64,000 nt of DNA. Source: Gaiella sp. (GTDB lineage: Bacteria; Actinomycetota; Thermoleophilia; Gaiellales; Gaiellaceae). Of this stretch, positions 5,404-64,000 are shown piece after piece (position 1 is the first letter of the stretch; every line of letters starts with the position of its first letter). A program made the translations under genes and the position numbers. The DNA is taken from positions 1,790,622-1,854,621 of the forward strand of contig JAOSJZ010000001.1 of NCBI GenBank assembly GCA_027493885.1. Reading direction: 5' to 3'. The notes beneath the pieces were generated by a model. It was not told where the DNA came from. It did no database searches and saw nothing but the letters and a program-made list of their open reading frames with translations.

Positions 5404-5763
5404 TTGGCGACCCAACCGCAGCCGCTCTACTCTGTGTATCGCGCCCGCCTTCGTGCGGTCACGTGCCACCGCGTCGTCGCGCAGAACCCGGCACAGGTCG
5501 GCGATTTCCTGAGCTTCGCCGAGATGGGCGCGAACTTCGAGTGGTGGGATCTCCACCGCGCGGTAGGCGTCTCTCACTGGGAGGACGCGGAGACCGCGGC
5601 TGCCGTTGCGCGAGGCCAGGGTAAGGACTGGCTCGCCGTCTTGGATCTTTCGCGAGCGGACGGACGCACGCCGTGGGCATACATCGGGAGACGCGGCCAC
5701 ATCACAGTCTGGGCGCCTCCCCCGGTGCTCCTGGCCGCAGTGGTCGATTACGTGCGAGTGTAG
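5404..5763 (+). CDS. IS passenger hypothetical protein (119 aa)
   Basis: ORF with TTG start, globular composition, GVSHWED and GHITVW motifs. Confidence 0.55.
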   Translation: MATQPQPLYSVYRARLRAVTCHRVVAQNPAQVGDFLSFAEMGANFEWWDLHRAVGVSHWEDAETAAAVARGQGKDWLAVLDLSRADGRTPWAYIGRRGHITVWAPPPVLLAAVVDYVRV

Positions 5764-49570: not shown

Positions 49571-49585
49571 GGTGGATCCGGCGAT

Positions 49586-51040
49586 TCAACCGAGGGAGGC
49601 GGGGCCGGACGCCGCTTCTGCGCCGGCAATCATTCCGAAGACACCGCACGAGGCAAGCATTCCGCCGTAGTAGCGGTCGTGGACGCCGCCCGCGGCGCCG
49701 GGGACGGCGCGCAGTCCCGGGATCGGTGCGCCTCGAGTGTTGAGAACTCGTGCCCGGGAATCGATAGCGATCCCACCGTACGTCATGCTGACGCCGGGCG
49801 CGAGCTTGATCGCATGATAGGGCCGGGTCACGAGGGGCACGCCGCCCGTGCTGGGGACATCGAGTGCCGCGCTACGGTCGGCCAGCGCGGAGTTGTATCC
49901 ACGGATTGTCCGGCCGAGGCGTACGGGGTCGAGGCCATGGCCGGCGAGCTTCTCTACGAGCTCCTCGATCGTTCGCGCGACGACCACGGTGGCGCCGCGA
50001 GCGCGGGACAGACGCAGCCCGTCGATCCCAATACTCGGCCGTGTCCCGCGACGGTGTGCTCGGAAGTAGGGTAGGAAGGCTGAGTACCGTAGGTTGCGCG
50101 GACGCAGACTCCCGGGCGGCAGCTCGTAGACGGCGTGCTCTCGCCGGATCGCTTCGTCGAGGATCGCCCACAGCCCACCCGGCGGCTGACGGGTCGCGAT
50201 GTCCAGCACCTCACCGTTGAGCTCGGACGGCCCTTCGTCCATGAACCTCTCGCCATCCGAGTTCACGACGATGCTGTGGCTGGCGTAGAACGCGGAGAGC
50301 AGCAGCGGATCGAGGAAGTTCGACCACCGAATTTCGCACGGCGGCGCGGGCATCAGCTGCCCGTAGAGGCTGCCCATGGCTGGAGTGAGCGCGGCGCCGA
50401 CCGCCACGGCCATCCTCAGAGCGTCGCCGACCGCCTCCGGCACCGCGCGCGGGACGATCTCCGCCGCCGCCGGGCCAACATACGTACGCAGCAGCTCCCC
50501 GTCTCGCTGGAATCCGCCGGAAGCTAGGATCACCTCGCGCGCCGCCACCGACATCTTCCGACCGTTACGCTCGCACGCGACGCCCACGACGACCCCGTCC
50601 TCCCGAAGCAGCTCTCGCGCGCGGGTCTCGAAGAGGATCGTGCCTCCCAGCCGCTCGAGTCGGCGTCCCAGTTCCGAGAACCAGGCGATCTTCGCGTCGG
50701 GCATCATGCTGTCGCCGATCTGGTACTTAGGAACGGTGACCCCCCGGAAGGTCACCGTGGCATAGGACCCACGGGCGCCCGACGACGAGAGCCAGTCGAC
50801 GAAGGTGCGGAACTCCTCCACCAGAGTGCGCGCAAGCTCCGGGGCAGTCGGACAGTGCGCGCGGTATTCATCCCACGACTCGGCGCCCCAGATGTGGACC
50901 GCCCCGCCGGAATGGAGCGCAGTGCCCCCGAGCTTCGACGCGGCCTCGACCAGGAGCACGCGTTGCCCGAGCTCGGCAGCCTTCAGCGCCGCACAGATGC
51001 CGCCCAGGCCTCCTCCGACCACCACGACGTCCTCAGCCAC
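49586..51040 (-). CDS. FAD-dependent oxidoreductase (flavocytochrome c/TcuA/KstD-like flavoprotein)
   Basis: DVVVVGGGLGG, GGTALHSGG, ILASGGFQ, VNSDGERFMDE, TYGGIAID, YGGMLASCGVFG. Confidence 0.85.
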   Translation of the reverse strand: MAEDVVVVGGGLGGICAALKAAELGQRVLLVEAASKLGGTALHSGGAVHIWGAESWDEYRAHCPTAPELARTLVEEFRTFVDWLSSSGARGSYATVTFRGVTVPKYQIGDSMMPDAKIAWFSELGRRLERLGGTILFETRARELLREDGVVVGVACERNGRKMSVAAREVILASGGFQRDGELLRTYVGPAAAEIVPRAVPEAVGDALRMAVAVGAALTPAMGSLYGQLMPAPPCEIRWSNFLDPLLLSAFYASHSIVVNSDGERFMDEGPSELNGEVLDIATRQPPGGLWAILDEAIRREHAVYELPPGSLRPRNLRYSAFLPYFRAHRRGTRPSIGIDGLRLSRARGATVVVARTIEELVEKLAGHGLDPVRLGRTIRGYNSALADRSAALDVPSTGGVPLVTRPYHAIKLAPGVSMTYGGIAIDSRARVLNTRGAPIPGLRAVPGAAGGVHDRYYGGMLASCGVFGMIAGAEAASGPASLG

Positions 51041-51151
51041 TGGGATACCTTGGTGAGGTGACGAACGTCGCATCAAGGAAGCAGCGACGGGCGGTGACGC
51101 GACGCAGATCGGACAGTGCCGAGGGATGAACGGTCGACAGCGGCAGAGAGA

Positions 51152-52105
51152 TCAGAAGTTCTCCGATGATTCGCAGGCGTGGAACGCCCACCCCGGGATA
51201 GGCGCTCTAAGCTCGGCGCCAACATGGCGGAACGCATTAACAGTCTCCGCCACGGCCGGAATCCGGAGCATGCCCTGGCGAGTCTCAAGCAGCACCTCCC
51301 GCGTCGGGGTTGGACTGAGGCTCCCAAATACGAGGTCCGGATGGCGGCTGGCAACCCCAGAGAGTGCCGGGAGCAGAGCGACCCCGAACCCGGCTGCTAC
51401 GAGCGCCTGAGCAGCGACATGGTCATCGAGCTGATGGGTGACCCTAGGCTCAAAGCCAGCATCACGACAAATGTGCTCGAGATGGGGTCGGTGGAGGCCT
51501 GCGATCCAATCCTCATCGGCCAGATCGGCCAACCGCACCTTGCGACGACCCGCGAGCCGATGGCTTCGCGGCAGAGCGACTCGGATGTCCTCCGTAAACA
51601 ACCTGATGCGGACGAGATCCCTGTCTCTATTACCGGTTGGGATTGGGAGCACACTGTAACGAAACACGACTGCGATGTCATACGCCCCTTGAACGAGCAA
51701 GTCACGGGCGACTTCGGGACGTGCTTCGCGAAAGGTCAGCGTGAGATTCGGAGTTCGCTGGCGGAGATGGTCGAGCGTTCTTGGCACGAGAGCCGCGCTA
51801 GCAGTGGAGAACGCAACAACACGCACTCTTCCCGCACCGAGACTGCCGAGACTGGCGATCTCGCGTTCGGCAGACTCGAGCAGCGCGAGCGCGGCCGACC
51901 CGCGTTCGAGCAGGATCTCCGCGGCCTCCGTTAGCATCAGTCGACGACCTTGCCGTAACACGAGCGTCACCCCGAGTCGCGCCTCGAGCCTCCTGATTCG
52001 CTGGCCTACGGCCGGCTGGCTGTAGCCAAGTGTTCGCGCCGCGCCGCTGAAGGAGCGTGCGTCGGCGACAGCCCGGATCATCCGGAGCTCGGCGACATCG
52101 ACCAT
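51152..52105 (-). CDS. LysR-family transcriptional regulator
   Basis: RSFSGAARTLGYSQPAVGQRIRRLEARLG..LTEA; C-terminal effector domain. Confidence 0.93.
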   Translation of the reverse strand: MVDVAELRMIRAVADARSFSGAARTLGYSQPAVGQRIRRLEARLGVTLVLRQGRRLMLTEAAEILLERGSAALALLESAEREIASLGSLGAGRVRVVAFSTASAALVPRTLDHLRQRTPNLTLTFREARPEVARDLLVQGAYDIAVVFRYSVLPIPTGNRDRDLVRIRLFTEDIRVALPRSHRLAGRRKVRLADLADEDWIAGLHRPHLEHICRDAGFEPRVTHQLDDHVAAQALVAAGFGVALLPALSGVASRHPDLVFGSLSPTPTREVLLETRQGMLRIPAVAETVNAFRHVGAELRAPIPGWAFHACESSENF

Positions 52106-52405
52106 GACGACAATCTAAAACATTCGGTTTCTCAAGAGCAAGCATATTCTCTCTTGACTTCTACACGAGGGTTTGGCAGCGTGACTAGGGTGGTGGCAGC
52201 GCGGCAAGAACGCGTGAAGTGCAGGCTTCCCGCGTCGCCCATCAGCTGTACCGTCTCCAGACGTAACGCACTTTGGATTCAATGGTGCGTCGATCGCAAG
52301 CTCCTCGACCTATCAAGCGACGAGGCGTGCTCTGTCCCGAGCCGCCAGCGGAGAAGCTGACGAAGGTGACGGTCCTGCAGTCGCCCTCTTGGAGACACCG
52401 GGCCG
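52037..52405 (+). promoter_or_regulatory. LysR 5' end plus divergent promoter/leader, copy A
   Basis: TCAAGAG-N12-CTCTTGA dyad (52132-52157) overlapping TTGACT (52154-52159); homologous in inverted orientation to 61502-61886. Confidence 0.75.
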
Positions 52406-52472
52406 TTTGTGGCGCGCCAGTGCTCCGTGCCGCGGACGGATACGTGAGTCAGGAACGACGAAAGGAAGGGTG

Positions 52473-53081
52473 ATGTACTCCCGCTACTCCGCATTCACCT
52501 TCGATGACGAGGCCCGCGGGCGCGCGATGGCGTTCTGGAGTGACGTCGGTGCGCCCGTCGCGGCAACCCAACCGGGCTTCCAGCTAGCGACCATCCTCGA
52601 GTCCGATGAGACTCCCGGCCGATTGCGCACTCTCACTGTCTGGCGGCGCCAGGAGGACTTCGAACGCTTCTACTCAAGCGACGACCACCAGGTCATCAAT
52701 GCGAGGATCCGCGAGTCGGGCCTTCGGATAGACGATCGCGATGGCCTGACTGTCAGGCATCTTGTCGAGCCCGAAGCCGGTGAGGTGCGACTGATCCGCG
52801 CGCGCGTGCCGGTGGAGCGACTCGATGAGGTGGTCGGGTTCTGGCGCCGCACCGGACGGGCAATCATCGAGTCGCAGCCGGGCTGTGTGCGTGCGCGGGC
52901 GTTCATCGACCGCGATCAGTCTCTGTTGATCCTGCAGATTCACTGGCGCAGTGCCTCGGATGGAAGGGCCTTTGTTGAATCCGAGCAGCACGAGACTGAG
53001 TTCGTCGCCGGGCTTGGCCCGGGCGTTGAACGACTCGAGCGGCTTCATCTCGAGTCCATCGACCAGGGCGGGGCCTCATGA
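52473..53081 (+). CDS. Tandem two-domain ABM (dimeric alpha-beta barrel) protein
   Basis: Two repeats: QPGFQ..TVWRRQEDFERF..H and QPGCV..HWRSASDGRAF..H; GGAAGG RBS. Confidence 0.7.
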   Translation: MYSRYSAFTFDDEARGRAMAFWSDVGAPVAATQPGFQLATILESDETPGRLRTLTVWRRQEDFERFYSSDDHQVINARIRESGLRIDDRDGLTVRHLVEPEAGEVRLIRARVPVERLDEVVGFWRRTGRAIIESQPGCVRARAFIDRDQSLLILQIHWRSASDGRAFVESEQHETEFVAGLGPGVERLERLHLESIDQGGAS

Positions 53082-54160
53082 AGAAGGGACTGGGGCTTCT
53101 CGGTGTGGCCGGAACGACTCCTTTGTCGGAGGTGTGTCAGCGTGCATTGGCGCTTTTTGACGACCACCCGACGATCGAGGTCCGCGCGCTGATCGCCGAC
53201 GACCCGGCAGACGTCGGCCGCTCCTTCGGCGAAGTCACCGTCGGCCGGTGGCTCCGACCTGAGCCCGTTCCCGAGCGCTGGGTCGACACTCCCCTGGCCG
53301 GTATCGACGACGACTTGAGGACGGCCGGTGTCGACCTTGTCCTTTCGTCCTTGATAGGCCCTCGCGCTCGGGAACTGGATCCAGTTGTGGCAGCGCTCGG
53401 ACTACCGGTCGTCTCCGAGTCGATGGGACTGCGTCTTGAGCCGGACGTACCCCTAGTCGTGCCAGAGGTGAACCCTGAGCACATCGGGCTCGTTGAACAC
53501 CAGCGAAGCACGCGCGGGTGGAAGGGGTACATCGTCGCGAGCCCGCTCTGCACCGCCGTGATAGCGGCGCTTGTCCAGAAGCCGCTCGACATCGTGTTCG
53601 GGGTTGACTCGCTCGTCGTCACATCCCTACAGGCACTGTCGGGCGCGGGACCCAGCGGCGTGCCGGCGATGGCGAGCCTGGACAATGTGCTACCACACAT
53701 CGACGGGGAGGAGGAGAAGCTCTCGGCTGAGCTCCCCAAGATACTCGGAAAGGTCGAAGGCACTGCCATCCGACCACACGACGCGCAGATCGCTGCCACG
53801 TGTACACGCGTCGGTGTGCGTCATGGTCACACTTTGTCGATGACGTTCGGGCTAACCTCGCCCGCCACGGCGGGCGAGGTTAGCGAAGTGCTGATGAGCT
53901 TCCGCGGCTCCTGGCCCGCGGGCACAGCCTCGCTGCGCCCCGATGCCCCGCTAACAGTCGAGTCGGCGGCAGCCCGCCCACAGCCACTCTTAGATCGTGA
54001 CCGTGATGGCGGCCGGGTCGTGACGGTGGGCCGTGTGCGGGAGCAGGCGACGCCAGCGAACGGCATCGGACTCGTGGCGGTCGGGCACAACCACGAACGG
54101 GGAACGTGGGGAAACGCCGCGATGCTCTGCGAGCACCTCGTCGCTGATGGCTGGGCCTGA
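53078..54160 (+). CDS. Divergent aspartate-semialdehyde dehydrogenase-like protein
   Basis: PDVPLVVPEVNPEH, PLCT, SLQALSGAG, GEEEKL, ATCTRVGVRHGH, GHNHERG; Rossmann GxTG motif degenerate. Confidence 0.8.
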   Translation: MKKGLGLLGVAGTTPLSEVCQRALALFDDHPTIEVRALIADDPADVGRSFGEVTVGRWLRPEPVPERWVDTPLAGIDDDLRTAGVDLVLSSLIGPRARELDPVVAALGLPVVSESMGLRLEPDVPLVVPEVNPEHIGLVEHQRSTRGWKGYIVASPLCTAVIAALVQKPLDIVFGVDSLVVTSLQALSGAGPSGVPAMASLDNVLPHIDGEEEKLSAELPKILGKVEGTAIRPHDAQIAATCTRVGVRHGHTLSMTFGLTSPATAGEVSEVLMSFRGSWPAGTASLRPDAPLTVESAAARPQPLLDRDRDGGRVVTVGRVREQATPANGIGLVAVGHNHERGTWGNAAMLCEHLVADGWA

Positions 54161-55184
54161 ACAATCGCCGACGTCGGCCCGAGAGGCCGTCAGCGTTACG
54201 ACGACCCCGGAAGCCCTACAATGCGCGGTGCGCGCAGCGATTCGGGTGCCCGGACTCGCTGGAGACCTCACCGCTGCGGCGCTGGTCGAGGCTGAGCAGC
54301 TCGGCGAGCGTCGCTTCGGCGTTTCTCTTCTCTCCGGCGTCGCACGCGATGAGGAGCGGTGTGACTTGCCCTGCTTCGACAATGCGAACCGAGTCGCCGA
54401 GCTTTGTTGCGCCGCGGGCCTCTTCGGACCAGTCGTCGTAGCATCGGTGGCTGAGCGGATGGTCGCAGCCGCACGATCGGGCGGCGTAGGAATCGCCGTA
54501 CTTCGGAATCTCGGTGCCCTTGGGCGTCTCGCACCGTACGTGCGCTGGGTGGCGACCGAAGGTCTTGTCGGAGTGCTCGCGGTCGATGCGCCACCGTTCG
54601 TCGCTCCCTACGGAGGGAGCGCTGCTGTCCTCGGGACGAACCCGATCGCATTTGCGCTACCGGCGAAACCTCGTCCTATCGTTGTCGACGTCAGCACAAG
54701 TTCGATCACCATGGCTGGCCTGCGCGATGCTCAAGCGGCGGGCCGAGATCTCCCTCTTGGAGTCGCGCTGAATAGCGACGGCCTATCAACCGCGGACATC
54801 GACGAGGCGGTGTCTGCCACACCGCGCGGCGGACTGATGGGCACTCTCCTGGCGCTCCTCGTCGAGTCTCTCACCGGTGGGCTGTCTGGCGTCCTACCTG
54901 GCCCTGAAAAGCGTACGGGTACGTTGCTCGTGCTACGTCCCGTGGACGCAAAGCCGCTCGTCGGCACCCGACTCGTAGAGTCCTTCGAGAAAGTCGGAGC
55001 GCGCGCTCCGGGACTTGGGCCTACGCCGGAGGCCGAACGTATTACGCTTGAGCCCACAACCGTGTACATACTTGATCGCCTCGTGCCGGGGTGGCGCGAC
55101 GATGAGTTCGTTGAGGCACGAGCGGCTCGGCCATCTCGTAACACATTCCCAAAGGTCAGTGGATCACGAGATCGACCACCGTGA
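54147..55184 (+). CDS. Ldh_2-family (AllD/DpkA/ComC-like) oxidoreductase
   Basis: VAPYGGSAAVLGTNPIAFA, VDVSTS, ALNSDG..T.D, GTLLALLVESL. Confidence 0.75.
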   Translation: MAGPEQSPTSAREAVSVTTTPEALQCAVRAAIRVPGLAGDLTAAALVEAEQLGERRFGVSLLSGVARDEERCDLPCFDNANRVAELCCAAGLFGPVVVASVAERMVAAARSGGVGIAVLRNLGALGRLAPYVRWVATEGLVGVLAVDAPPFVAPYGGSAAVLGTNPIAFALPAKPRPIVVDVSTSSITMAGLRDAQAAGRDLPLGVALNSDGLSTADIDEAVSATPRGGLMGTLLALLVESLTGGLSGVLPGPEKRTGTLLVLRPVDAKPLVGTRLVESFEKVGARAPGLGPTPEAERITLEPTTVYILDRLVPGWRDDEFVEARAARPSRNTFPKVSGSRDRPP

Positions 55185-56890
55185 CCGTGGTCTCCGACAG
55201 CGTGCTCGTGAACAAGATCCGAGAGTCCGTGATCGGCGACGATCAGGTGATGCAGGGTCCATTCGGCGCTCGTCGCATCACCTACGCAGACTACACGGCG
55301 AGCGGCCGTTCACTCACCTTCATCGAGGATGTCATCCGAGATGAAGTACTTCCGCGCTACGCAAATACACATACCGAATCGTCGGGCACCGGATTGCAGA
55401 CAACCCGTCTGCGAGAGGATGCCCGCCGCATCATCCGGGACGCGGTCGGCGGCGACGATGACACGTGCGTGATCTTCTGTGGCTCCGGCGCCACAGGTGC
55501 AGTTGACAAGCTCGTTGGCATCCTCGGCATCCGCATCCCATCCGAACTCGACGACCACTACAAGCTCTCGCGCCACATTCCGGAAGATGAGCGGCCAATC
55601 GTTTTTGTCGGGCCGTTCGAGCACCACTCGAACGAACTGCCCTGGCGTGAGTCAATAGCGGACGTTATCGAGATTCCCGAGGACGTGGATGGCCACATCG
55701 ACCTAGGGCGACTTGAGGCAGAACTCGTGCGCTACGCGGCTCGTCCGCTCAAGATCGCGTCATTCTCGGCCGCCTCCAACGTGACGGGCATTCTCTCCAA
55801 CACGTGCGCGATCGCGGATCTCGCGCACCAACACGGGGCTCTTTCGTTCTGGGACTACGCTGCAGCTGCGCCCTACATTGGGATCGAAATGTATCCCTAT
55901 TGCGACAGTCATCCGCTCGGATACAAGGACGCGGTGTTCTTCAGCCCGCATAAGTTCGTTGGCGGGCCCGAGACTCCCGGCGTGCTGGTCGTACGGCGGG
56001 AGCTACTGCGTAATCGAGTGCCTGACATCGTCGGTGGCGGCACTGTTGCCTACGTCAACGACCGCGAACACCGGTATCTGAGGGATCCCGTGCACCGCGA
56101 AGAAGGCGGAACACCGGCAATTGTTGGCGCGATTCGCGCTGGCCTCGTCGTACAACTCAAGCAAGCGGTCGGCATCGACGTTATCCGGGCGCGAGAGGCG
56201 GCCTTCTGGCGGCGCGCCGTCGGCCGCTGGACGGAGAACCCCGCGATCGAAATTCTTGGCAATGCCAACGTAGAAAGGCTCTCGATCGTCTCGTTCGTCG
56301 TGCGGAGACCGAACGCCCGGTACCTACATCACAACTATGTCGTCGCCCTGCTCAATGACCTCTTCGGCATCCAGGCACGCGGAGGGTGCTCATGCGCGGG
56401 CCCGTACGGTCATAGACTCCTCGGGATCGACACCGCGCGCTCCCGCGAGTTCGAGACTGCGATTACTCGAGGATACGAGGGGATCAAGCCCGGCTGGACG
56501 CGTGTCTCGTTCAACTACTTCATCTCTGACACGGTATTCGAGTACATCGTCTCTGCCGTCGATCTGGTCGCGGCCGACGGGTGGCGCCTTCTGCCCGCCT
56601 ACCGATTTGACCCTGCCAGCGGACTCTGGCGTCACGGGGAGGGCCCCCGTGAGCCAGCACTGCGCCTGAACGCGCTATCGTACGATCCGGCGACCGGCGA
56701 CTTGAGATTGCCCGAAGTTCCTCACGACCGCGCGCCGGAGTCGGCGCTCGCCATCCACTTGGAAGATGGGAGACGGATCCTCGCGTCTGCAACTCCCGAC
56801 GAGATGGACGACGGCGACCTCGGTGCCGTAATCGGCGCCGGCTTCGAGCACCTCCGGTGGTTCGACCTCCCCCCGTCCTGTCTTGCTTAA
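55181..56890 (+). CDS. Class-V PLP enzyme (cysteine-desulfurase-like)
   Basis: YADYTASGR, YANTHTE, EHHSNEL, SAASNVTG, WDYAAAAP, FSPHKFVGG, EEGGTP, RGGCSCAGPY. Confidence 0.88.
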   Translation: MTVVSDSVLVNKIRESVIGDDQVMQGPFGARRITYADYTASGRSLTFIEDVIRDEVLPRYANTHTESSGTGLQTTRLREDARRIIRDAVGGDDDTCVIFCGSGATGAVDKLVGILGIRIPSELDDHYKLSRHIPEDERPIVFVGPFEHHSNELPWRESIADVIEIPEDVDGHIDLGRLEAELVRYAARPLKIASFSAASNVTGILSNTCAIADLAHQHGALSFWDYAAAAPYIGIEMYPYCDSHPLGYKDAVFFSPHKFVGGPETPGVLVVRRELLRNRVPDIVGGGTVAYVNDREHRYLRDPVHREEGGTPAIVGAIRAGLVVQLKQAVGIDVIRAREAAFWRRAVGRWTENPAIEILGNANVERLSIVSFVVRRPNARYLHHNYVVALLNDLFGIQARGGCSCAGPYGHRLLGIDTARSREFETAITRGYEGIKPGWTRVSFNYFISDTVFEYIVSAVDLVAADGWRLLPAYRFDPASGLWRHGEGPREPALRLNALSYDPATGDLRLPEVPHDRAPESALAIHLEDGRRILASATPDEMDDGDLGAVIGAGFEHLRWFDLPPSCLA

Positions 56891-57035
56891 GTGCTCCCGG
56901 CCGTCAGTTCGCTCGCCATCATGCCGCGAGCTGAAGTTGAGAGACGACGGACTGGCGTCTGAACCCGAAGCCGTTTCACGCGAACGACAGGCTCTGCGTC
57001 GGAGTTCGCTACGTCGCTCTACCGTCCAGATCGAC

Positions 57036-58022
57036 TCAAGTATCGTACGCTCGCCAGCAAGCGACCTCCCTTCCGTTCGGCGCAGGAATGAATGGCGGTG
57101 GCTCTACGCAGCGGTCGAACGCGATCGGGCAACGAGGCGCGAACGGGCAGCCCGGCGGGGGGTCGATCATGTTCGGCGGCGATCCGTCAATGCCGATCAT
57201 TCGGTGCTGAGCGAGGTCGATCCGTGGCGTCGAGCGCAGGAGGCCGGCGGTGTAGGGATGGCCAGGATGCTGAAAAACATCTGTAGCACTCCCGCGCTCC
57301 ATGATCTTGCCGCCGTACATGACCACGACGCGATCGCACACCCCCGCCACGACGCCGAGGTCGTGTGTGACGAGCAGCACGGCCAGTCCGAGTCGCTGCT
57401 GGATCTCGCCGATCAACTCGAGGATCTGCGCCTGGATCGTCACGTCCAGCGCGGTCGTCGGCTCGTCGGCGATGAGGAGCTCGGGCTCGCATGCGAGCGC
57501 CATCGCGATCAGTGCGCGCTGCCGCTGGCCGCCGGACAATTCGTGCGGATACGCCTTGGCGCGCTCCCGCGGCGATGGGATGCCGACGAGGTCGAGCAGC
57601 TCGACGACGCGTTCCTCCGCCCGCTTGCGCCCCATCCCGAGATGGTGGCGAAGCACCTCGCCGATCTGCCAGCGGAGGGTGAACAGCGGATTGAGCGATG
57701 TCATGGGATCCTGGAAGACGATCGCGAGCTCCTTCCCGCGGACCTGCTTGACCCACTTCAGTCCGGCGCGGTTAAGGAGGGAACTCCCCTTCCAACGCAC
57801 GTCGCCGCCGGTGATCTTTCCCGGGAGGTCAATCAAGCCGAGGATCGCGAGCGAGGTCACGCTCTTGCCCGACCCGGATTCGCCCACGAGTCCGACGGTT
57901 TCGCCTCGTGCGATGTCGAAGGTCGTGCCACGCACAGCCCGGACGACGCCGTGTTGCGTGAAGAAGCTGACCTCGAGCTTCTCGACCTCGAGTAGCGGCA
58001 CGCGGTGCCCGCTCTCGCTCAC
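57036..58022 (-). CDS. Oligopeptide/dipeptide ABC ATPase (DppD-like)
   Basis: GESGSGKS, FQDPMTSLNP, LSGGQRQR, ADEPTTALD, HPYTAGLL, GCPFAPRC. Confidence 0.93.
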   Translation of the reverse strand: MSESGHRVPLLEVEKLEVSFFTQHGVVRAVRGTTFDIARGETVGLVGESGSGKSVTSLAILGLIDLPGKITGGDVRWKGSSLLNRAGLKWVKQVRGKELAIVFQDPMTSLNPLFTLRWQIGEVLRHHLGMGRKRAEERVVELLDLVGIPSPRERAKAYPHELSGGQRQRALIAMALACEPELLIADEPTTALDVTIQAQILELIGEIQQRLGLAVLLVTHDLGVVAGVCDRVVVMYGGKIMERGSATDVFQHPGHPYTAGLLRSTPRIDLAQHRMIGIDGSPPNMIDPPPGCPFAPRCPIAFDRCVEPPPFIPAPNGREVACWRAYDT

Positions 58023-58987
58023 CTCGTCTCGGTGGTCTGGGTCAACCTCGAGGTCTGCGCGAAGCGGCGATCCCTCTGCTGCGGGTCGGCCGCCACGCGC
58101 AGCCAGCTCGCGAACAGATTGACTGCGAGCACGAGGACAGAGATCGCGATCCCGGGCCAGGTCGCCACCCACCATGCGGTGAAGAGATACTCGCGGCCGG
58201 ACGCAACCATCAGCCCCCACGAGACCTCTGGCGGCTGGATGCCGAGTCCGAGAAAGGAAAGCGCCGCCTCCGCCACCACAATCCCGGCGAACTCGAGGAC
58301 GGCGAGCGTCAGAAGGGGCGAGGCTAGATGGGGGAGGATATGCTTGAAGATCACGCGGCGCGGCTTGCATCCGACGATCTCGGCCGCCTCGACGTAGGGC
58401 GTTTCTCGTGCCTGCAGCACGATTCCACGCGTCATACGAGCGTAAACCATCCAGCCGTTCAGGGCCAGAACGACGATCACCGACTTCAGGCTCGGCGGGA
58501 CGACCGTAAGGATCGTGAGGGCGAGCAACAGGCCGGGGAAGGCGACCTGAACGTCGACCACTCGCATCACGGTCGAGTCCCACCTGCCGCCGCGGTAGCC
58601 TGCGAAAAGCCCTAGCACGATCCCGAATGTGCCTGAGAGGAGTACGACCGCACCGCCCACCACAAGGGACGTACGGGCTCCGTAGAGCAGCTGCGAAAGC
58701 TCGTCCTTGCCGACGCCATCGGTGCCGAGCGGATGGTCCCAAGACTGGAAGGGCGGTGTCAGCCGGTTCAGCAGTGACTGCTCGCTTGGCTCGTGCGGTG
58801 CGAGCCAGGGCGCGAAGACCGCACAAGCGATGATCAATACGATGACCGTGAGGCCGAGCAGTCCCGCCTTGTCCAACCAGAGCTCAGACAGGCCCGAGCG
58901 GAGAGCGTGGCTGACCCCGTAGAGCCGCCCACGGACAACGTCCCGCTCGTGGCCCGCGTCGACGGATTCCCGCGTCGTCGACGACAT
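58019..58987 (-). CDS. Peptide ABC permease (DppC-like)
   Basis: HPLGTD..G.D, YVEAAEIVG, KHILP, EAALSFLGLG. Confidence 0.92.
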   Translation of the reverse strand: MSSTTRESVDAGHERDVVRGRLYGVSHALRSGLSELWLDKAGLLGLTVIVLIIACAVFAPWLAPHEPSEQSLLNRLTPPFQSWDHPLGTDGVGKDELSQLLYGARTSLVVGGAVVLLSGTFGIVLGLFAGYRGGRWDSTVMRVVDVQVAFPGLLLALTILTVVPPSLKSVIVVLALNGWMVYARMTRGIVLQARETPYVEAAEIVGCKPRRVIFKHILPHLASPLLTLAVLEFAGIVVAEAALSFLGLGIQPPEVSWGLMVASGREYLFTAWWVATWPGIAISVLVLAVNLFASWLRVAADPQQRDRRFAQTSRLTQTTETR

Positions 58988-59908
58988 TCAGCCGAGCTTG
59001 ATCCTGGGGTCGACGACCCGGTAGAGAATGTCGATGCCGACGTTGACGAAGACGACGAGGACAGCCACGACCAGCACAATCGTCTGCACGAGGAACACGT
59101 CCTGTTCCCTGACCGCCTGGAAGGCGAGGTACCCGACCCCGGGCCAGGCAAAGACCGTTTCGACAGTTACCGCGTAGCCCGCGAGCGCTCGCATCAACTC
59201 CCAACCCGAGAGCGTGAGTACGGGAATCAACGCGTTTCGAAGGGCATGGATGCCGACGACGCGCCATCGTGGGATTCCTTTGGCTTTCGCCGTCTGGACG
59301 TATGCCTGGCCGAGCTGGTCGATCATCGACGACCGCGCGATCATCGTCAGCCTCCCGACCGCGGGGAGGGCGAGCGTCAGCGCGGGCAGAATCAGGTGCT
59401 CGATGCCTCCCTTCCCCGACGCGGGCAGGACGCCAAGCTCCACAGCGAAGAAGAGGATCAAGAGGATTCCGAGGAAGAACTCCGGTACGGACAGCCCGAG
59501 CAGGCTGAGAGAGACGCTCATCCGGTCGACCAGGCTGCCGGGCCGCACAGCCGCGACCACACCGAGGGGCACGGCGATCAGGATCGCGAGCGCTATACCG
59601 GCGAAGACGAGCTCGAACGTCGCCGGCAGGTGCTCGAGCACGATGCTGATCGTCGGACGATCCTGCAGCAGTGATGTCCCGAAGTCGCCGCGCGCTAGGT
59701 TGGTGATGTACTCGCCGAACTGCTCCAGAATGGGCCGGTCGAACCCGAGTTGGTGTCGAAGAGCCGCGCGCTGCTCGTGCGTCGCCTCGAACGGGAGTAT
59801 AACCCCGACCGGGTCGCCCACGAGCCGGCTCGTCGCAAACACGACGATCGCGACGCAGAACACGACCACGACGCCATGGACGATCCTACCGATCGCGAAC
59901 CGGCCCAC
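58988..59908 (-). CDS. Peptide ABC permease (DppB-like)
   Basis: LGFDRP, GDFGTS, YVQTAKAKG, HALRNA, ETVFAWPGVG. Confidence 0.92.
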   Translation of the reverse strand: MGRFAIGRIVHGVVVVFCVAIVVFATSRLVGDPVGVILPFEATHEQRAALRHQLGFDRPILEQFGEYITNLARGDFGTSLLQDRPTISIVLEHLPATFELVFAGIALAILIAVPLGVVAAVRPGSLVDRMSVSLSLLGLSVPEFFLGILLILFFAVELGVLPASGKGGIEHLILPALTLALPAVGRLTMIARSSMIDQLGQAYVQTAKAKGIPRWRVVGIHALRNALIPVLTLSGWELMRALAGYAVTVETVFAWPGVGYLAFQAVREQDVFLVQTIVLVVAVLVVFVNVGIDILYRVVDPRIKLG

Positions 59909-59932
59909 TGTGGAGTTCCTTCTATGCCATTC

Positions 59933-61471
59933 CTAGCCCACAAACCTCATCGTGTTGACGAAGATGTAGCCGTCGCTGCGCGGCTGCCACCGGAGGTTCT
60001 CGTCCATGCCCCAGAGCGTCGAAAAGTTGACGAGCCAGGTGAAATACGCCTGCTGACGTGCCCTGCGGATGGCCAAGTGGTAGAGGTTGGCCCGCTTGTT
60101 CTCGTTCAGCTCACTCCGCGCCTTGTCGATCCACTGCTTGAGACGCTGGTCGGCATTCGAGGAAGCGATGCCGGACGGCGCGTAGTACATCGTGAGTTGT
60201 TGGTCGGCGTCGTAGAGGTCGGTCGAACTCGAGATGAAGATCGCGTCGGGCCGCCGCTTCGGGTCGACGAGCCGGCTCACGAACTCCCGGAAGTCGTAGA
60301 TCTTGACGTCGACCTCGAGACCTATTGCACGCCATGACTGCGTCACGACCTCGATCAGCTCGCGGTCCTTGAGCCAGCGGCCGGAGGTACCAACGACGTT
60401 GACCGTCTTGCCCGTCGCACCTGCCTCCTCGATCAACTGCTTCGCCCTGGCGACGTTGTGCGGGTAGGCCTTGGTCGCCTTGTCGAAGCCGAACACTGAC
60501 GGGCTCAGCACTTGCCCGGCGTCGACGGTCGCGTAGCCGAGGAACAGTTTGCTCGCGATCGCCTTCTTGTCGATCGCGTAGTTCATCGCCTGACGCACCC
60601 TGACGTCTGCCGTCACCTGGCTCCCGGGCCGTGCGTTAAGGACGAACTTCGGGTGCTCGGTGGACGGAACCGAGAGCACCTTCGGTGCGCGCTTGGCGTT
60701 CTCCGGGATCAGATTCGTGATGAGGTCGAAATTGCCGGCGACGAGACCCGCGAGCTGCGTTGAGCCCTCGGGCACGAACTTGAACGTCACCGTCCGGATC
60801 GACGGCTTGGGTTTGCCCCAGTAGTCCGGATTGGCGGTCAGCGTGATGTGATCGCCGCGCGCCCATTCGGAAAAAACGTACGGCCCCGTCCCGACGGGCC
60901 TGTTTGCGAAGTCGGGCAGACTCTTCCAGTCGGCGGGCATAATCCGCATGTAGCTCATCCGCGACGGAAAGATCGGATCGGCACCCTTCGTGAGGATGTC
61001 GACGGTCAGGTCGTTGACCTTCTTCGCCCCCTTGATCGTACCGAGCCAGGAGGCCTGTTCGGTGACCACCTTCGGCTCGAGGAGATGCCTAACAGTCGCG
61101 ACGACCGAGTCGGCGTTAAAAGGCGTGCCGTTCGAGAACCTAATCCCGGGGCGCAGCTTGAACCGCCACGCGGAACGCGACACGCGTCTCGGATGGTGGC
61201 TCGCGAGCTTCGGATACAAGCGCGAACCGTTGGGCGTGCGGCCCAACAGTGTGTCGAAGACGTTCTGCGTTACGGCGCGCTGGTTGCCGTCGTCCCGTAC
61301 GAGCGGGTCGAGCGTTGATGGCTCCCCACCGATCGCGATCGTGATCGATTCCGCTGTGGCATGCGTCGATGTAGATGTCGCGTCAGCGGCACTCGCCGCG
61401 CTCAGCGCTGCTGACGCGACTGTCGCGACGACGACGGCCGAGATCGCCGCCATAGTGTGACGTCTCATCAT
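59933..61471 (-). CDS. Family-5 ABC substrate-binding protein (DppA-like)
   Basis: EPSTLDP, FKLRPGIRFSNG, PVGTGPY, NPDYWG, VRQAMNYAID; signal peptide without lipobox. Confidence 0.92.
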   Translation of the reverse strand: MMRRHTMAAISAVVVATVASAALSAASAADATSTSTHATAESITIAIGGEPSTLDPLVRDDGNQRAVTQNVFDTLLGRTPNGSRLYPKLASHHPRRVSRSAWRFKLRPGIRFSNGTPFNADSVVATVRHLLEPKVVTEQASWLGTIKGAKKVNDLTVDILTKGADPIFPSRMSYMRIMPADWKSLPDFANRPVGTGPYVFSEWARGDHITLTANPDYWGKPKPSIRTVTFKFVPEGSTQLAGLVAGNFDLITNLIPENAKRAPKVLSVPSTEHPKFVLNARPGSQVTADVRVRQAMNYAIDKKAIASKLFLGYATVDAGQVLSPSVFGFDKATKAYPHNVARAKQLIEEAGATGKTVNVVGTSGRWLKDRELIEVVTQSWRAIGLEVDVKIYDFREFVSRLVDPKRRPDAIFISSSTDLYDADQQLTMYYAPSGIASSNADQRLKQWIDKARSELNENKRANLYHLAIRRARQQAYFTWLVNFSTLWGMDENLRWQPRSDGYIFVNTMRFVG

Positions 61472-61501
61472 GCTTCTCCTCTCGAGATCGTGGACGAGGC
61501 A

Positions 61502-61817
61502 CGGCCCGGTGTCTGCAAGAGGGCGACCGCGGGACCGTCACCTTCGTCAGCTTTTCCGCTGGGGGCTCGAGTTCTTGTAGTGGTGGAGGTTGAGTGTTCC
61601 GAACTGCAGTGAGCCACAACCGCCGTTGGAGACGCATGCCGGCGTGACGGCCATGTTGTTGGCTCCGGCACGGTGCCACGACCCTCTGCTTCGCTCGGGA
61701 CAGAGCACGCGCTCTTGCCGCGCTGGCCACCACGCTGGTCACGCTGCCAAACCCTCGTGTAGAAGTCAAGAGAGAATATGCTTGCCTTTGAAAAACCGAA
61801 CGTTTTAGATCGACGTC
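61502..61817 (-). promoter_or_regulatory. Promoter/leader copy B driving the peptide ABC operon
   Basis: Reverse complement contains GCAAGCATATTCTCTCTTGACTTCTACACGAGGGTTTGGCAGCGTGAC and AGCTGACGAAGGTGACGGTCC identical to copy A. Confidence 0.75.
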
Positions 61818-61886
61818 ATGGTCGATGTCGCCGAACTCGCGATGATCCAGGCTGTCGCCGACGCACGCTCCTTCAACGATGCCGCA
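61818..61886 (+). pseudogene. Truncated LysR 5' fragment (duplicate of the first ~23 codons of 52105-52037)
   Basis: ATGGTCGATGTCGCCGAACTCGCGATGATCCAGGCTGTCGCCGACGCACGCTCCTTC vs ATGGTCGATGTCGCCGAGCTCCGGATGATCCGGGCTGTCGCCGACGCACGCTCCTTC. Confidence 0.85.
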
Positions 61887-62030
61887 TGCATTGCTGTCTC
61901 GCTCCCCGTCCCGGACAACCCGCTGACCTGACGCTTCCGACCGGGCCAGAGTGATCCGGCGGCCGACTAACTGGACCGACCTCGACTGACAAGGAGACTG
62001 AGCTGCATTCTGACGGGGAAGGAAAGTGGC

Positions 62031-62960
62031 TCAGTAGCCGGCCGTGAGGTCGATGGTGCCGGCGAGTGGGCGGCCCTCGGCGAACGCGCTGACGTTGCCG
62101 GCGAGGTGCTCGAGCAGCTCGGCCAGGTGCGAGTCCCACGGGTTGCCCGCGTTCGGGTTCGCGACGTGAGGGGTGATCAGGACGTTGTCGAGGGCCCAGA
62201 GCGGATGCCCGTCGGGGAGCGGCTCGGGGTCGGTGACGTCGAGGAGCGCGGCGCCGAGCCTGCCGTCGCGAAGTCGCTCGACCAGCGCGCCGGTGTCGAC
62301 GAGCTCCCCGCGTGCGACGTTGACGAGCGCCCCGCGCGGTCCGAGCGCGTCGAGCACGGCGCCGTCGACGATCCCGCGCGTCTCGTCGGTCAGGGCCGCG
62401 GTCAGCACGAGGTAGCGCGTGCTCGGTAGCGCCTCGCCGAGCGCGGACGACGGGTACGTGCGGTCGAAGCCCGGGAGCCGGTCGCCGTGACGGGTCACGG
62501 CGACGAGGCGCACCCCGAGCGGCGCCAACAGCTCCGCCAGCCGGCGGCCGATCGCGCCGGCGCCGAGGATCGTCACGGTCTCGCCGCGGAGCCGTTCGGT
62601 GTCGAGCTGCCGCCAGGTCTGCGCCCGCGCGTAGGCCGGGAGCCGCCGAGCCGCCGCGAGCAGGAGCGCGAGCGCGTGCTCGGCGACACCGTCGGCGTAG
62701 ACGCCACGGGCGCAGGTCCACGTGCGCGCGTCGTCGACGACCCCGGAGGCGAGCCAGCGCTCGACGCCCGCGATCACGAGCGCGACCCACCGGTGCCGCG
62801 GCTCGAGCAGCGCCGCAAGCCGGTCGGGCTGGCCCGGGGACGTCCACACGAGCGCGTCCGCGTCCGACGGCTCGACCAGCGTCGCGCCGGCTGCCTCCAG
62901 CGCTTCCGCCATCCCGGGGAGCACCTCGGGCGTGACCGCGAGCGGGACCGAACGGCTCAC
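62031..62960 (-). CDS. D-isomer-specific 2-hydroxyacid dehydrogenase
   Basis: VAEHALAL, ILGAGAIG, LVNVARGELVD, LDVTDPEP, ITPHVA. Confidence 0.92.
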   Translation of the reverse strand: MSRSVPLAVTPEVLPGMAEALEAAGATLVEPSDADALVWTSPGQPDRLAALLEPRHRWVALVIAGVERWLASGVVDDARTWTCARGVYADGVAEHALALLLAAARRLPAYARAQTWRQLDTERLRGETVTILGAGAIGRRLAELLAPLGVRLVAVTRHGDRLPGFDRTYPSSALGEALPSTRYLVLTAALTDETRGIVDGAVLDALGPRGALVNVARGELVDTGALVERLRDGRLGAALLDVTDPEPLPDGHPLWALDNVLITPHVANPNAGNPWDSHLAELLEHLAGNVSAFAEGRPLAGTIDLTAGY

Positions 62961-64000
62961 CCGGCCACCACCCGCGACACGCGCAACGCGTGGCGGCCCG
63001 CGGCGAGGAACGCCGCCGCACCGGCGACGGACAGCCCCGCGCAGACGGCCCAGGCGACCTCGAACGAGGCGATCGTCGCCACGAGCGCGACGAGGAGCGG
63101 CCCCAGCGTGGCGCCGGCGAACGAGCCCGTGACGGCGGTTCCGACCGCACGGCCCGCCCCGGCCGTGCCGTGCTCGACGGCGGCCAGGATGTAGAGCCCG
63201 GACCAGCCCCAGCCGACGCCGACGGCGAGCAGGGCACCGGCCACCACGGCCGGGACGGCGCCGACGACGAGGAGCGCGAAGCCGACCGTGCCCACGACGA
63301 CGAGCACGGCCATCTGCGGCAGGAGCGGGTCGCGCCGTCGATCGACGCGGACGCCCAGCCGGATCCGGGTGGCGACGCAGATGACGCTCGCGACCGCGAG
63401 CAGGATACCCGCGGCGCCCTCCGAGAGGCCGGAGTCGGCCGCGTAGACGACGAGGTACGCGATCAGCCCGTTCGCGGCGGCGCTCGCGAGCAGGCCCCCG
63501 AGCGCGAGCAGGCGGATGAAGCCCCGCTCGTCGCCACCGTGGGGGTGGGCGGCCGCCCGAAGGGCGAGCGGCCTGCCCTCGCCGCCGCGTACGGCGAGCG
63601 TCGCGAGCGCGGCCGCGGCCGCTCCGAGCACGAAGACGGGTCGCCAGCCAAGGCTCGTCCCGAGCGTCGGCAGCGCCAGTCCCGCGACCACGCTCGCGAG
63701 CGGCGGCCCCGCCTGCTGCAGGCCGAGCACGGTCCCCCGCCGCCGTGCGCGGAGCTCTCCCGTGACCAGCGCGCTCATCGCCGTGGGGATGATCGCGTTG
63801 CCGATCGCGGTCACGGCGAGGAACGCGGTGAAGACGACAAACGACGGAGCGGCCGCGATCCCGAGCGACCCGGCGACGACGAGCGCACCCGCGACCCGGC
63901 CGGTGCGGATGGCGCCGATGCGGTCGACGAGACGCCCGGCCGGGAACGACGCAGCCGTCGCGACGACCCAGAACGCCGTGATCGCCACCCCGAGCCGCGC
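62957..64000 (-). CDS. MFS transporter (5'-partial)
   Basis: GRLVDRIGAIR loop motif, multiple TMs, GVRVDRRR second repeat; frame runs off the window end. Confidence 0.88.
   Translation of the reverse strand, partial: ARLGVAITAFWVVATAASFPAGRLVDRIGAIRTGRVAGALVVAGSLGIAAAPSFVVFTAFLAVTAIGNAIIPTAMSALVTGELRARRRGTVLGLQQAGPPLASVVAGLALPTLGTSLGWRPVFVLGAAAAALATLAVRGGEGRPLALRAAAHPHGGDERGFIRLLALGGLLASAAANGLIAYLVVYAADSGLSEGAAGILLAVASVICVATRIRLGVRVDRRRDPLLPQMAVLVVVGTVGFALLVVGAVPAVVAGALLAVGVGWGWSGLYILAAVEHGTAGAGRAVGTAVTGSFAGATLGPLLVALVATIASFEVAWAVCAGLSVAGAAAFLAAGRHALRVSRVVAG

What the first reader, a model, noticed from the sequence alone, without database searches (positions are those of the whole stretch)
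52037..61886. Two convergent operons driven by inverted copies of one LysR promoter/leader, each with its own insert
Seen: 52037-52405 and 61502-61886 are inverted homologs covering the lysR 5' end, dyad/-35 block and a downstream ~60-nt block. Copy A has a unique 113-bp segment bounded by GCGTG repeats (52212-52216, 52325-52329); copy B has a different 128-bp segment bounded by GCTCG repeats (61565-61569, 61693-61697), so spacing stays similar. The distal block (CAGCGGA(G/A)AAGCTGACGAAGGTGACGGTCC..GTCGCCCTCTTG.AGACACCGGGCCG) keeps an AGGTGAC/GTCGCC hairpin with changes mainly in the loop. Inference: promoter duplication put enzymes and transporter under one LysR; the distal block may be a new cis-regulatory RNA; the repeats could also invert the ~9-kb interior.
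Basis: partly seen in the sequence, partly recalled or inferred. Interest (0 to 1): 0.65.

Follow-up and report, generated by a model that had tools for sequence, protein, structure and literature searches.

The report
Duplicated LysR promoter heads captured transporter
A roughly 260-bp copy of a LysR-type regulator's control region, with a stub of the regulator gene, sits upside-down in front of a truncated transporter operon on a foreign gene island. This probably puts uptake and breakdown genes under one regulator; it is a tidy but ordinary rearrangement, not a new RNA element or DNA switch.

Summary
Arms 52038-52216/61706-61885 and 52330-52406/61501-61569 (plus link 61693-61705) are inverted homologs, about 91% identical, and occur only twice in the 3.29-Mb genome. 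Each copy has a unique segment (113 and 128 bp) flanked by 5-bp direct repeats. Short-read contigs from several runs reproduce all four flanks.

Copy A is the native site: lysR faces an ABM, ASD-like, Ldh_2 and SufS-like operon, as in the one close outgroup. Copy B is derived. It keeps 68 nt of lysR and is fused about 30 nt upstream of an Opp/Dpp-type operon, at a GGCC(G/A)T microhomology. That operon is itself a fragment: only about 25-29 codons of its second ATPase remain. In the outgroup the transporter lies downstream of lysR. All of this lies on a low-GC island (about 51.1-62.0 kb) of a Gaiella-like actinobacterium.

The "distal block" shows no sign of being an RNA element. It is no better conserved than the dead lysR stub, folds no better than shuffles, has no Rfam hit, no homolog elsewhere and no counterpart in the outgroup leader. 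The unique segments are not mobile elements.

It would leave the regulatory wiring unchanged.

The parts
51152..52105 (-). Full-length LysR-type regulator gene (317 aa)
   Evidence: Pfam HTH_1 (E 9.6e-20) and LysR_substrate (E 2.1e-36). No equivalog-level NCBIfam match. The only close relative (77% aa) is in outgroup L017/L018.
52038..52216 (.). Copy A, outer arm: first 68 nt of lysR, divergent promoter region and start of the leader
   Evidence: Inverted repeat with 61706-61885. Contains a 48-nt run identical in both copies (about 52138-52185).
52118..52130 (.). AAAC-N5-GTTT dyad, the candidate LysR recognition site of copy A
   Evidence: Conserved in copy A, copy B and outgroup L017. Centred about 65 bp upstream of the inferred start site. 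The dyad plus -35 combination occurs only twice in the genome. Binding is inferred, not shown.
52154..52182 (+). Inferred promoter of operon A: TTGACT (-35), 17-nt spacer, CAGCGT (weak -10)
   Evidence: The -35 and the A2/T6 positions of the -10 are conserved in L017 (TTGACT ... CACTGT). The strict sigma-70 consensus scan did not call it, so this is an inference.
52217..52329 (.). Unique 113-bp segment of copy A (includes one GCGTG repeat)
   Evidence: Absent from copy B. Single-copy in the genome, with no terminal inverted repeats. No significant similarity to the outgroup leader (p=0.37).
52330..52406 (+). Copy A inner arm: link CTCTGTCC plus the 69-nt 'distal block'
   Evidence: 93% identical to 61501-61569. 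No Rfam hit. Fold z -0.08. No compensatory pairs.
52473..56890 (+). Operon A: double-ABM protein, archaeal-type ASD-like dehydrogenase, Ldh_2-family dehydrogenase and a 569-aa SufS-like class-V PLP enzyme
   Evidence: Pfam and NCBIfam. The RBS-proximal 40 nt (52428-52466) are conserved with L017 (p<0.002).
56944..57030 (-). Stub of the second ABC ATPase (first 25-29 codons)
   Evidence: tblastn of L030 ATP2 residues 2-26, 68% identity. tblastx gives 59-69% over 29 aa against L030, L032 and L033. Nucleotide homology to the intact operons ends at 56960.
57036..61468 (-). Operon B: family-5 substrate-binding protein, two permeases and one OppD-type ATPase
   Evidence: Pfam and NCBIfam. About 81% nucleotide identity to intact five-gene operons L030-L033, over 61493/61499 down to 56960.
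61501..61569 (-). Copy B inner arm (distal block), joined to native sequence upstream of the binding-protein gene at 61500/61501
   Evidence: The junction overlaps a GGCC(G/A)T microhomology with the native upstream sequence of L030.
61570..61697 (.). Unique 128-bp segment of copy B (includes one CGAGC repeat)
   Evidence: Absent from copy A. Single-copy, with no terminal inverted repeats. Contains a 35-codon ORF preceded by GGAG, of unknown significance.
61706..61885 (.). Copy B outer arm: leader start, -10 (61741-61746), -35 (61764-61769), dyad (61793-61805) and the lysR stub
61818..61931 (+). lysR' stub ORF (37 codons; the first ~20 aa match LysR, then unrelated sequence)
   Evidence: Translation MVDVAELAMIQAVADARSFNDAAC... 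compared with LysR MVDVAELRMIRAVADARSFSGAAR....

Best explanation
A small segment, about 260 bp in its shared parts, was copied in inverted orientation by illegitimate (microhomology-type) recombination. It comprised the first 68 nt of lysR, the divergent LysR-controlled promoter and the first part of the operon-A leader. The copy was joined about 30 nt upstream of the start codon of a substrate-binding-protein gene that heads a truncated Opp/Dpp-type ABC transporter operon. Copy A is the original site and copy B is the derived one. As a result, the single LysR protein encoded next to copy A most likely binds the same dyad in both copies. It would then activate the catabolic enzymes (+ strand) and the matching uptake system (- strand) together. 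Afterwards each copy acquired one indel flanked by a 5-bp direct repeat, most likely through slippage or microhomology events rather than mobile-element insertion. The 'distal block' is simply the promoter-distal end of the duplicated piece. Shown: the structure, its uniqueness in the genome, the two gene stubs, the junction positions, conservation of the promoter core in an outgroup, and the enzyme-transporter link in other loci. Inferred: promoter activity of copy B, LysR binding at both copies, and the order and mechanism of events.
For: The inverted homology is highly significant and occurs only twice in the genome. All four flanks are reproduced by independent short-read contigs. Copy B keeps only 68 nt of lysR. 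Copy A has the intact gene, and its arrangement lysR<-P->ABM is shared with outgroup L017, including the dyad, -35, -10 positions and the RBS-proximal leader. Homology of operon B to intact operons (L030-L033) starts 25-31 nt upstream of the binding-protein start codon. It ends 20-29 codons into the second ATPase, so operon B is a captured fragment that lost its native upstream region. The junction overlaps a GGCC(G/A)T microhomology. Transporter and enzymes are also linked in L017 (binding-protein gene directly downstream of lysR) and in L019 (permease-ABM-GntR-ASD-Ldh_2-binding protein). The whole unit is a low-GC island. A comparable case is known: the tfdR/tfdS inverted duplication on pJP4 gives two divergent LysR-controlled promoters (PMC11507517; PMC6449761).
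Against: There is no expression or binding data. The strict promoter scan finds no consensus sigma-70 site in either copy, and promoter rules for Gaiellales are unknown. Upstream genes (MFS, 2-hydroxyacid dehydrogenase) lie on the same strand as operon B with no canonical terminator between them, so read-through could also express it. Operon B lacks its second ATPase and may be decaying. The copies differ at 6 of 34 positions around the dyad, and a second dyad (TCAAGAG-N12-CTCTTGA) is imperfect in copy B. The 48-nt identical core is not longer than chance allows (p=0.13-0.23), so there is no statistical sign of selection on copy B.
Confidence: 0.65

Rival explanations
1. Copy B is only a rearrangement scar with no regulatory role. 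The transporter fragment is expressed by read-through from the upstream MFS/2-hydroxyacid-dehydrogenase genes, or is a decaying, non-functional operon.
For: The second ATPase is reduced to a stub. The upstream genes are co-directional and no canonical terminator lies between them and operon B. There is no statistical excess of conservation anywhere in the copy.
Against: The four remaining transporter genes are intact ORFs with normal domain hits. They are 100% identical across contigs from at least seven runs. The native ribosome-binding region was kept. The dyad, -35 and -10 are all intact in copy B, and the dyad is even more symmetric there. A GC-rich hairpin (-16 kcal/mol) follows the dehydrogenase gene and could terminate transcription. 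A paralogous ATP2 exists elsewhere in the genome.
Confidence: 0.2
2. The 60-70-nt distal block is a functional leader element shared by both operons. It would be either a structured cis-regulatory RNA or an operator for a second regulator, and was retained in both copies for that reason.
For: It is present in both leaders at similar distances from the promoter core (152 and 168 nt). Both copies can form CAGC/GCUG and ACGG..CC(U/C)G/CGGG.CCGU stems with one G-U to G-C change. The CTGCAG to CCGCGG change keeps a 6-nt palindrome.
Against: Its 93% identity equals that of the non-functional lysR stub. There is no Rfam match at E<=1. No homolog was found in 60 relatives or in 400 genomes of the class, which gave only 23-36-nt chance hits. 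JGI metagenomes gave one 24-nt chance hit inside a pilin-like coding sequence. The block is not recognisable in the orthologous L017 leader, although the promoter core and RBS-proximal region are.
Confidence: 0.07
3. The two arms serve as recombination sites for a reversible inversion of the 9.1-9.5-kb interior, acting as a DNA switch.
For: Inverted repeats of about 180 and 77 bp flank the segment and include a 48-nt perfect match, long enough for occasional RecA-mediated crossover.
Against: No recombinase or invertase gene lies in 49-64 kb. About 9% divergence between the arms argues against frequent exchange or gene conversion. The promoters lie inside the repeats, so an inversion would give each operon an equivalent promoter and change nothing regulatory. 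Only one orientation is present in the long contig.
Confidence: 0.05
4. The 113-bp and 128-bp segments are insertions of small mobile elements (MITE-like) with 5-bp target-site duplications.
For: Each segment is flanked by a perfect 5-bp direct repeat, and the other copy has a single repeat unit.
Against: Both segments are single-copy in the genome and absent from all fetched relatives. They have no terminal inverted repeats. Two independent insertions would have had to land 13 bp apart. The same signature arises from deletion between short direct repeats in a longer ancestral leader, or from template switching.
Confidence: 0.1

Closest known systems
tfdR/tfdS inverted duplication on plasmid pJP4 (Cupriavidus pinatubonensis JMP134)
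   Same: A LysR-type regulator's control region was duplicated onto the opposite strand within a catabolic gene cluster. Several divergent promoters (tfdDII..., tfdA) then answer to the same regulator specificity, and the arrangement arose by rearrangement during cluster assembly (PMC11507517; PMC6449761).
   Different: On pJP4 the whole regulator gene was duplicated, giving identical functional tfdR and tfdS. Here only 68 nt of the gene were copied, so one regulator must serve both promoters in trans. The second target here is a truncated transporter operon, and the host is an uncultured Gaiella-like actinobacterium.
Classical LysR-type (LTTR) divergent promoter architecture (e.g. CatR/ClcR/BenM: recognition site near -65, activation site overlapping -35)
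   Same: The regulator gene is transcribed divergently from its target. A conserved dyad is centred about 65 bp upstream of the inferred start, and the -35 is good while the -10 is weak, as expected for an activator-dependent promoter.
   Different: The dyad reads AAAC-N5-GTTT rather than a textbook T-N11-A box. The transcription start and binding are not known.
Microhomology-mediated template-switch rearrangements (FoSTeS/MMBIR-type; tandem-inversion duplications in bacteria). Named from my own knowledge, not looked up here.
   Same: An inverted duplicated segment, junctions at 4-6-nt microhomologies, truncated gene stubs at the breakpoints, and small indels flanked by short repeats.
   Different: The mechanism is inferred from the scars only. 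The order of events cannot be reconstructed, and the present gene order looks like a circular permutation of the outgroup order plus an inverted copy of the control cassette.

Membership tests
LysR-type regulator with divergent, regulator-dependent promoter | Regulator protein with an N-terminal HTH_1 domain and a C-terminal LysR substrate-binding domain | tested here: met
   Pfam PF00126 (E 9.6e-20) and PF03466 (E 2.1e-36).
LysR-type regulator with divergent, regulator-dependent promoter | Target operon transcribed divergently from the regulator gene | tested here: met
   lysR 51152-52105 (-) faces the ABM operon from 52473 (+). The same arrangement is seen in outgroup L017.
LysR-type regulator with divergent, regulator-dependent promoter | Dyad recognition site (T-N11-A type) near -65 plus an activation site at the -35 | tested here: inconclusive
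   The AAAC-N5-GTTT dyad is conserved in copy A, copy B and L017, about 65 bp upstream of the inferred start. It is not a canonical T-N11-A box, and the start site is inferred only.
LysR-type regulator with divergent, regulator-dependent promoter | Regulator binds both copies and controls transcription | not testable with these tools
   Needs EMSA, DAP-seq or reporter assays.
Structured cis-regulatory RNA (riboswitch or leader element) | Match to a described RNA family | tested here: not met
   Rfam 15 cmscan of 49000-64000 at E<=1 gave 0 matches.
Structured cis-regulatory RNA (riboswitch or leader element) | Folding energy lower than shuffled sequence | tested here: not met
   Block z-scores are -0.08, -0.60, +0.34 and -1.49. 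Whole-leader z-scores are +0.09 and -0.19.
Structured cis-regulatory RNA (riboswitch or leader element) | Covariation supporting the helices | tested here: inconclusive
   Only two sequences exist. None of 18 pairs is compensatory, and one shows a G-U/G-C change.
Structured cis-regulatory RNA (riboswitch or leader element) | Conserved in homologous leaders or elsewhere | tested here: not met
   Not found in the L017 leader, in 60 relatives, in 400 genomes of the class, or in JGI metagenomes apart from one chance coding-sequence hit.
MITE / insertion-sequence-derived insert | Terminal inverted repeats | tested here: not met
   The ends of the 113-bp and 128-bp segments are not complementary (sequence).
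MITE / insertion-sequence-derived insert | Multiple copies in the genome | tested here: not met
   blastn-short against the whole genome finds only the segments themselves.
MITE / insertion-sequence-derived insert | Target-site duplication | tested here: inconclusive
   5-bp direct repeats flank both segments, but deletion between direct repeats gives the same picture.
Invertible DNA switch (fim/hin/shufflon type) | Inverted repeats bounding the segment | tested here: met
Invertible DNA switch (fim/hin/shufflon type) | Site-specific recombinase gene at or near the segment | tested here: not met
   All sizeable ORFs in 48.8-64 kb have other Pfam assignments, and none is a recombinase.
Invertible DNA switch (fim/hin/shufflon type) | Both orientations present in reads | not testable with these tools
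Short-read contigs break inside the 48-nt identical core.
Invertible DNA switch (fim/hin/shufflon type) | Inversion changes which genes a promoter drives | tested here: not met
   The promoter cores lie within the repeats, so after a crossover each operon would still carry an equivalent promoter.
tfdR/tfdS-type duplicated LysR control module | Two inverted copies of the regulator gene plus promoter, each facing a different operon | tested here: not met
   The promoter part is met, but the second regulator gene is only a 68-nt stub. The case works like this module but is not the same arrangement.

The most novel reading that the evidence does not exclude
Both leaders may descend from one longer ancestral leader that held both unique segments, and each lost a different piece by deletion. 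On that reading, the block and the 18-nt link GCGTGCTCTGTCCCGAGC survived two independent trimming events because they form a functional leader element, such as an operator for a second regulator or a translation-linked element. In both copies an upstream ORF ends at the same TGA inside the block. Separately, an unchecked note from this scan reports a very similar inverted copy of a LysR control region with a truncated LysR stub in an unrelated genome. If such stub-bearing promoter copies recur widely, they could be a general and undescribed route by which LysR regulons grow.
Probability: 0.1. Interest if true: 0.55.

Novelty: new member of a known kind. Interest (0 to 1): 0.3.

Why it matters
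This is a clean natural example of how a regulon can grow. A few hundred base pairs of control DNA were copied by illegitimate recombination onto a newly captured operon that had lost its own promoter, with the scars still readable: a regulator stub, an ATPase stub and a junction microhomology. It gives a directly testable prediction, that one LysR controls two promoters, for an uncharacterised uptake-plus-catabolism island in the poorly studied, mostly uncultured Gaiellales. It does not reveal a new RNA class, mobile element or DNA switch.

Tried and rejected
- **Rfam:** a search of 49-64 kb at E<=1 found nothing.
- **DNA homologs of the control region:** 60 relatives gave only chance hits.
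- **Homologs of the block:** 400 genomes of the class gave only 23-36-nt hits at or inside genes.
- **Pattern scans:**
  - The outgroup-tolerant promoter pattern found nothing in JGI metagenomes.
  - The looser promoter pattern found one chance hit in genome contigs, in Oceanobacillus.
  - The block 22-mer found one hit inside a pilin-like coding sequence.
- **Further outgroups:** a relatives search with the ABM protein found nothing in 60 genomes or in genome contigs. Global protein searches found one useful outgroup (L017/L018) and one distant locus (L019).
- **Empty-site search:** the flanking 2-hydroxyacid dehydrogenase has no close ortholog in 40 relatives.
- **Coding origin of the leaders:**
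  - tblastx gave only GC-rich noise.
  - The block and segments show some codon-position GC periodicity.
  - The block's substitutions are 2 synonymous to 3 non-synonymous in the best frame, so a conserved small ORF was rejected.
- **Polarising the indels:** the L017 leader has no significant similarity to either segment or to the block, so this stays undecided.
- **Selection on the 48-nt identical core:** not significant (p=0.13-0.23).
- **Contig break at 57444-57462:** it was checked as a possible rearrangement point. It is a shared 32-mer with a paralogous ATPase, so an assembly artefact.

Full report
**1. Observation**

Reading both ends, the repeat finder and a MAFFT alignment confirm the inverted homology.
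- 52038-52216 pairs with 61706-61885. This arm holds the lysR 5' end, the intergenic promoter region and the start of the leader.
- 52330-52406 pairs with 61693-61705 plus 61501-61569. This is the link CTCTGTCC(CGAGC) plus the "distal block".
- Copy A carries 113 bp (52217-52329) that copy B lacks, bounded by GCGTG repeats.
- Copy B carries 128 bp (61570-61697) that copy A lacks, bounded by CGAGC repeats.
- The two indel sites are 13 bp apart.

A BLAST of copy A against the whole 3.29-Mb assembly finds copy B (E 1.7e-64 and 1.2e-22) and nothing else. A dyad-plus-35 pattern and a fuzzy core pattern also occur exactly twice.

Logan short-read contigs are 100% identical to the window on all four flanks. 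They stop inside the 48-nt stretch that is identical in both copies, as a k=31 assembler must. The duplication therefore exists in the sequenced population. Only the long contig shows how the flanks are connected.

**2. Gene content and setting**

- lysR (51152-52105, minus strand) has HTH_1 and LysR_substrate domains.
- Operon A (plus strand) encodes four proteins:
  - a double-ABM protein (52473-53081);
  - an archaeal-type aspartate-semialdehyde-dehydrogenase-like enzyme (53078-54160);
  - an Ldh_2-family dehydrogenase (to 55184);
  - a 569-aa SufS-like class-V PLP enzyme (55181-56890).
- Operon B (minus strand) encodes a family-5 substrate-binding protein (59933-61468), two permeases and one OppD-type ATPase (57036-58022).
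- G+C falls from 72-77% to 61-66% between about 51.1 and 62.0 kb. lysR through the lysR stub is therefore a compositionally foreign island.
- Homologs of the binding protein are named Gaiellaceae or Gaiella by their sources.

**3. Comparative evidence**

The ABM protein is rare. It is absent from 60 relatives and from genome contigs, and has only three relatives in the large protein collection. The LysR has one close relative.

- **L017/L018 (closest outgroup).** ABM is 74% and LysR 77% identical at the protein level; all three shared pieces are 72-74% identical at the nucleotide level. Its order is binding-protein gene (-), a 222-bp spacer, lysR (-), promoter, ABM (+).
  - lysR facing ABM is therefore ancestral, so copy A is the native position.
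  - In that relative the transporter sits directly downstream of lysR with no second promoter copy.
  - The alignment shows conservation of an AAAC-N5-GTTT dyad, TCTnTCTTGACTT (-35) and GTTTGGCAnnGTG, which includes CAnnGT 17 nt after the -35.
  - The last 40 nt before the ABM start codon are also conserved (p<0.002).
  - The rest of the outgroup leader has no significant similarity to the block (p=0.12 and 0.63) or to either unique segment (p=0.37 and 0.19).
- **L019 (more distant).** It strings permease, ABM, GntR, ASD-like, Ldh_2 and binding protein in one direction. Transporter and enzymes therefore belong together functionally even where the regulator differs.

**4. Operon B is a captured fragment**

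Three contigs with 73-74% identical binding proteins (L030, L032, L033) carry a five-gene operon: binding protein, two permeases, ATPase 1 and ATPase 2, followed by an HpcH aldolase. No lysR is nearby.

- Nucleotide homology (about 81%) to the window runs from 61493-61499 down to 56960.
- Upstream it stops 25-31 nt before the start codon, so only the ribosome-binding region is native.
- Downstream it stops 20-29 codons into ATPase 2, which survives as a stub at 56944-57030.
- At the upstream junction, the last bases of the block (GGGCCGT) overlap GGCCAT of the native upstream sequence. This is a junction microhomology.
- Together with the 68-nt lysR stub (37-codon ORF), these are the scars of illegitimate recombination.
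- The present order (lysR, P, enzymes, transporter, inverted P) equals a circular permutation of the outgroup order plus an inverted copy of the control cassette. I cannot reconstruct the exact steps.

**5. The distal block**

Identity between the copies varies little by segment:

| Segment | Identity |
|---|---|
| lysR stub | 88% (93% without the fuzzy first 10 nt) |
| ATG-to-core | 82% |
| Core and onward | 95% |
| Block | 93% |

- The block is no better conserved than a gene fragment that cannot be functional in copy B.
- The 48-nt perfect run in the core is within chance (p=0.13-0.23).
- Fold energies of the block and of both whole leaders are indistinguishable from dinucleotide shuffles.
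- The two-sequence consensus fold has no compensatory pair.
- Rfam gives nothing.
- No homolog appears in relatives, in the class or in metagenomes.
- A small ORF through the block is open in both copies, but it shows 2 synonymous to 3 non-synonymous changes and has no convincing start, so I rejected it.

**6. The unique segments**

Both are single-copy, lack terminal inverted repeats and match nothing fetched. They are not MITE-like elements.

The flanking 5-bp repeats are real signatures. A chance 5-nt match has odds of about 1 in 400-1000, and it occurs twice here. The repeats fit two explanations equally:
- deletion between short direct repeats in a longer ancestral leader that held both segments;
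- template-switch insertions.

The outgroup cannot polarise them. I lean towards microhomology events, because two independent insertions of unique DNA 13 bp apart seem less likely.

**7. Inversion**

No recombinase gene lies nearby. The arms are about 9% diverged, which argues against frequent exchange. Because the promoter cores lie inside the repeats, an inversion would leave each operon with an equivalent promoter.

**8. Mechanism proposed**

- **Shown.** A duplicated control region sits at the head of a promoter-less captured transporter fragment. The conserved promoter elements are intact in both copies. These are the only two such sites in the genome.
- **Inferred.** The single LysR binds the dyad, centred about -65 from an inferred start near 52189 or 61734, and activates both promoters.
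- **Caveats.**
  - The strict consensus scan calls no promoter.
  - Read-through from the co-directional upstream genes is possible.
  - The transporter lacks its second ATPase, although a paralog (80% to L030's ATP2) exists at genome position C1:114840-115811.

**9. Comparison and verdict**

The nearest described case is the tfdR/tfdS inverted duplication on pJP4, where a duplicated LysR module serves separate tfd operons (PMC11507517; PMC6449761). Here only a stub of the regulator was copied.

This is a new member of a known kind: regulon growth by segmental duplication during the assembly of a catabolic island. Interest is modest (0.3).

Noticed in passing
window 56944-57030 (-): The Opp/Dpp-type operon has only one ATPase gene. 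The second (OppF/DppF-type) gene is reduced to its first 25-29 codons in the convergent gap between the two operons.
   Followed up: yes
genome C1:109689-116583 (outside the window): A complete paralogous operon sits in the conserved context seen in L030-L033: flavoprotein, binding protein, two permeases, ATP1, ATP2 and HpcH aldolase. Its binding protein and permeases are less similar to L030 (61-68%) than the island's copies are (74-86%), while its flanking genes are 80-91% similar. This hints at a swap or replacement of the core transporter genes. ATP1 there aligns in two pieces and may be frameshifted.
   Followed up: partly
window ~51100-62000: This is a low-GC island (61-66% against 72-77% in the flanks). 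Within it, lysR and the enzyme genes have GC3 of 0.67-0.76, but the transporter genes have 0.83-0.85, suggesting that the two parts have different histories.
   Followed up: partly
window 55181-56890 (+): The SufS-like class-V PLP enzyme is 569 aa. The last ~150 residues (from about residue 414) have no Pfam or NCBIfam match.
   Followed up: no
L019 (Logan SRR22452314), 1-5708: A distant relative of the cluster has all genes in one direction and a GntR/FCD regulator inside the operon instead of a divergent LysR. The same uptake-plus-enzyme set is thus wired to a different regulator family.
   Followed up: no
window 61592-61699 (-): The 128-bp unique segment of copy B holds a 35-codon ORF (MAVTPACVSNGGCGSLQFGTLNLHHYKNSSPQRKS) with GGAG 8 nt upstream and GC3 of about 0.8. 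Copy A has a GTG-started 48-codon ORF ending at the same TGA inside the block. Both contain several Cys residues. Significance unknown, and probably chance in GC-rich DNA.
   Followed up: partly
window 57421-57452: All short-read contigs from both sides break at 57444-57462. The cause is a 32-nt exact match to a paralogous ABC ATPase gene, which is an assembly artefact and not a rearrangement point.
   Followed up: yes
window 61937-61966 (-) and 56905-56935 (+): GC-rich hairpins without U-tracts lie just after the 2-hydroxyacid dehydrogenase stop (-16 kcal/mol) and just after the class-V enzyme stop. They are possible non-canonical terminators.
   Followed up: no
another genome (scan note e1-5260226): An unchecked first-reader note describes a very similar inverted copy of a LysR control region (~245 bp, with the first ~33 LysR codons as a stub) heading a second operon in an unrelated genome. 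The pattern may recur.
   Followed up: no
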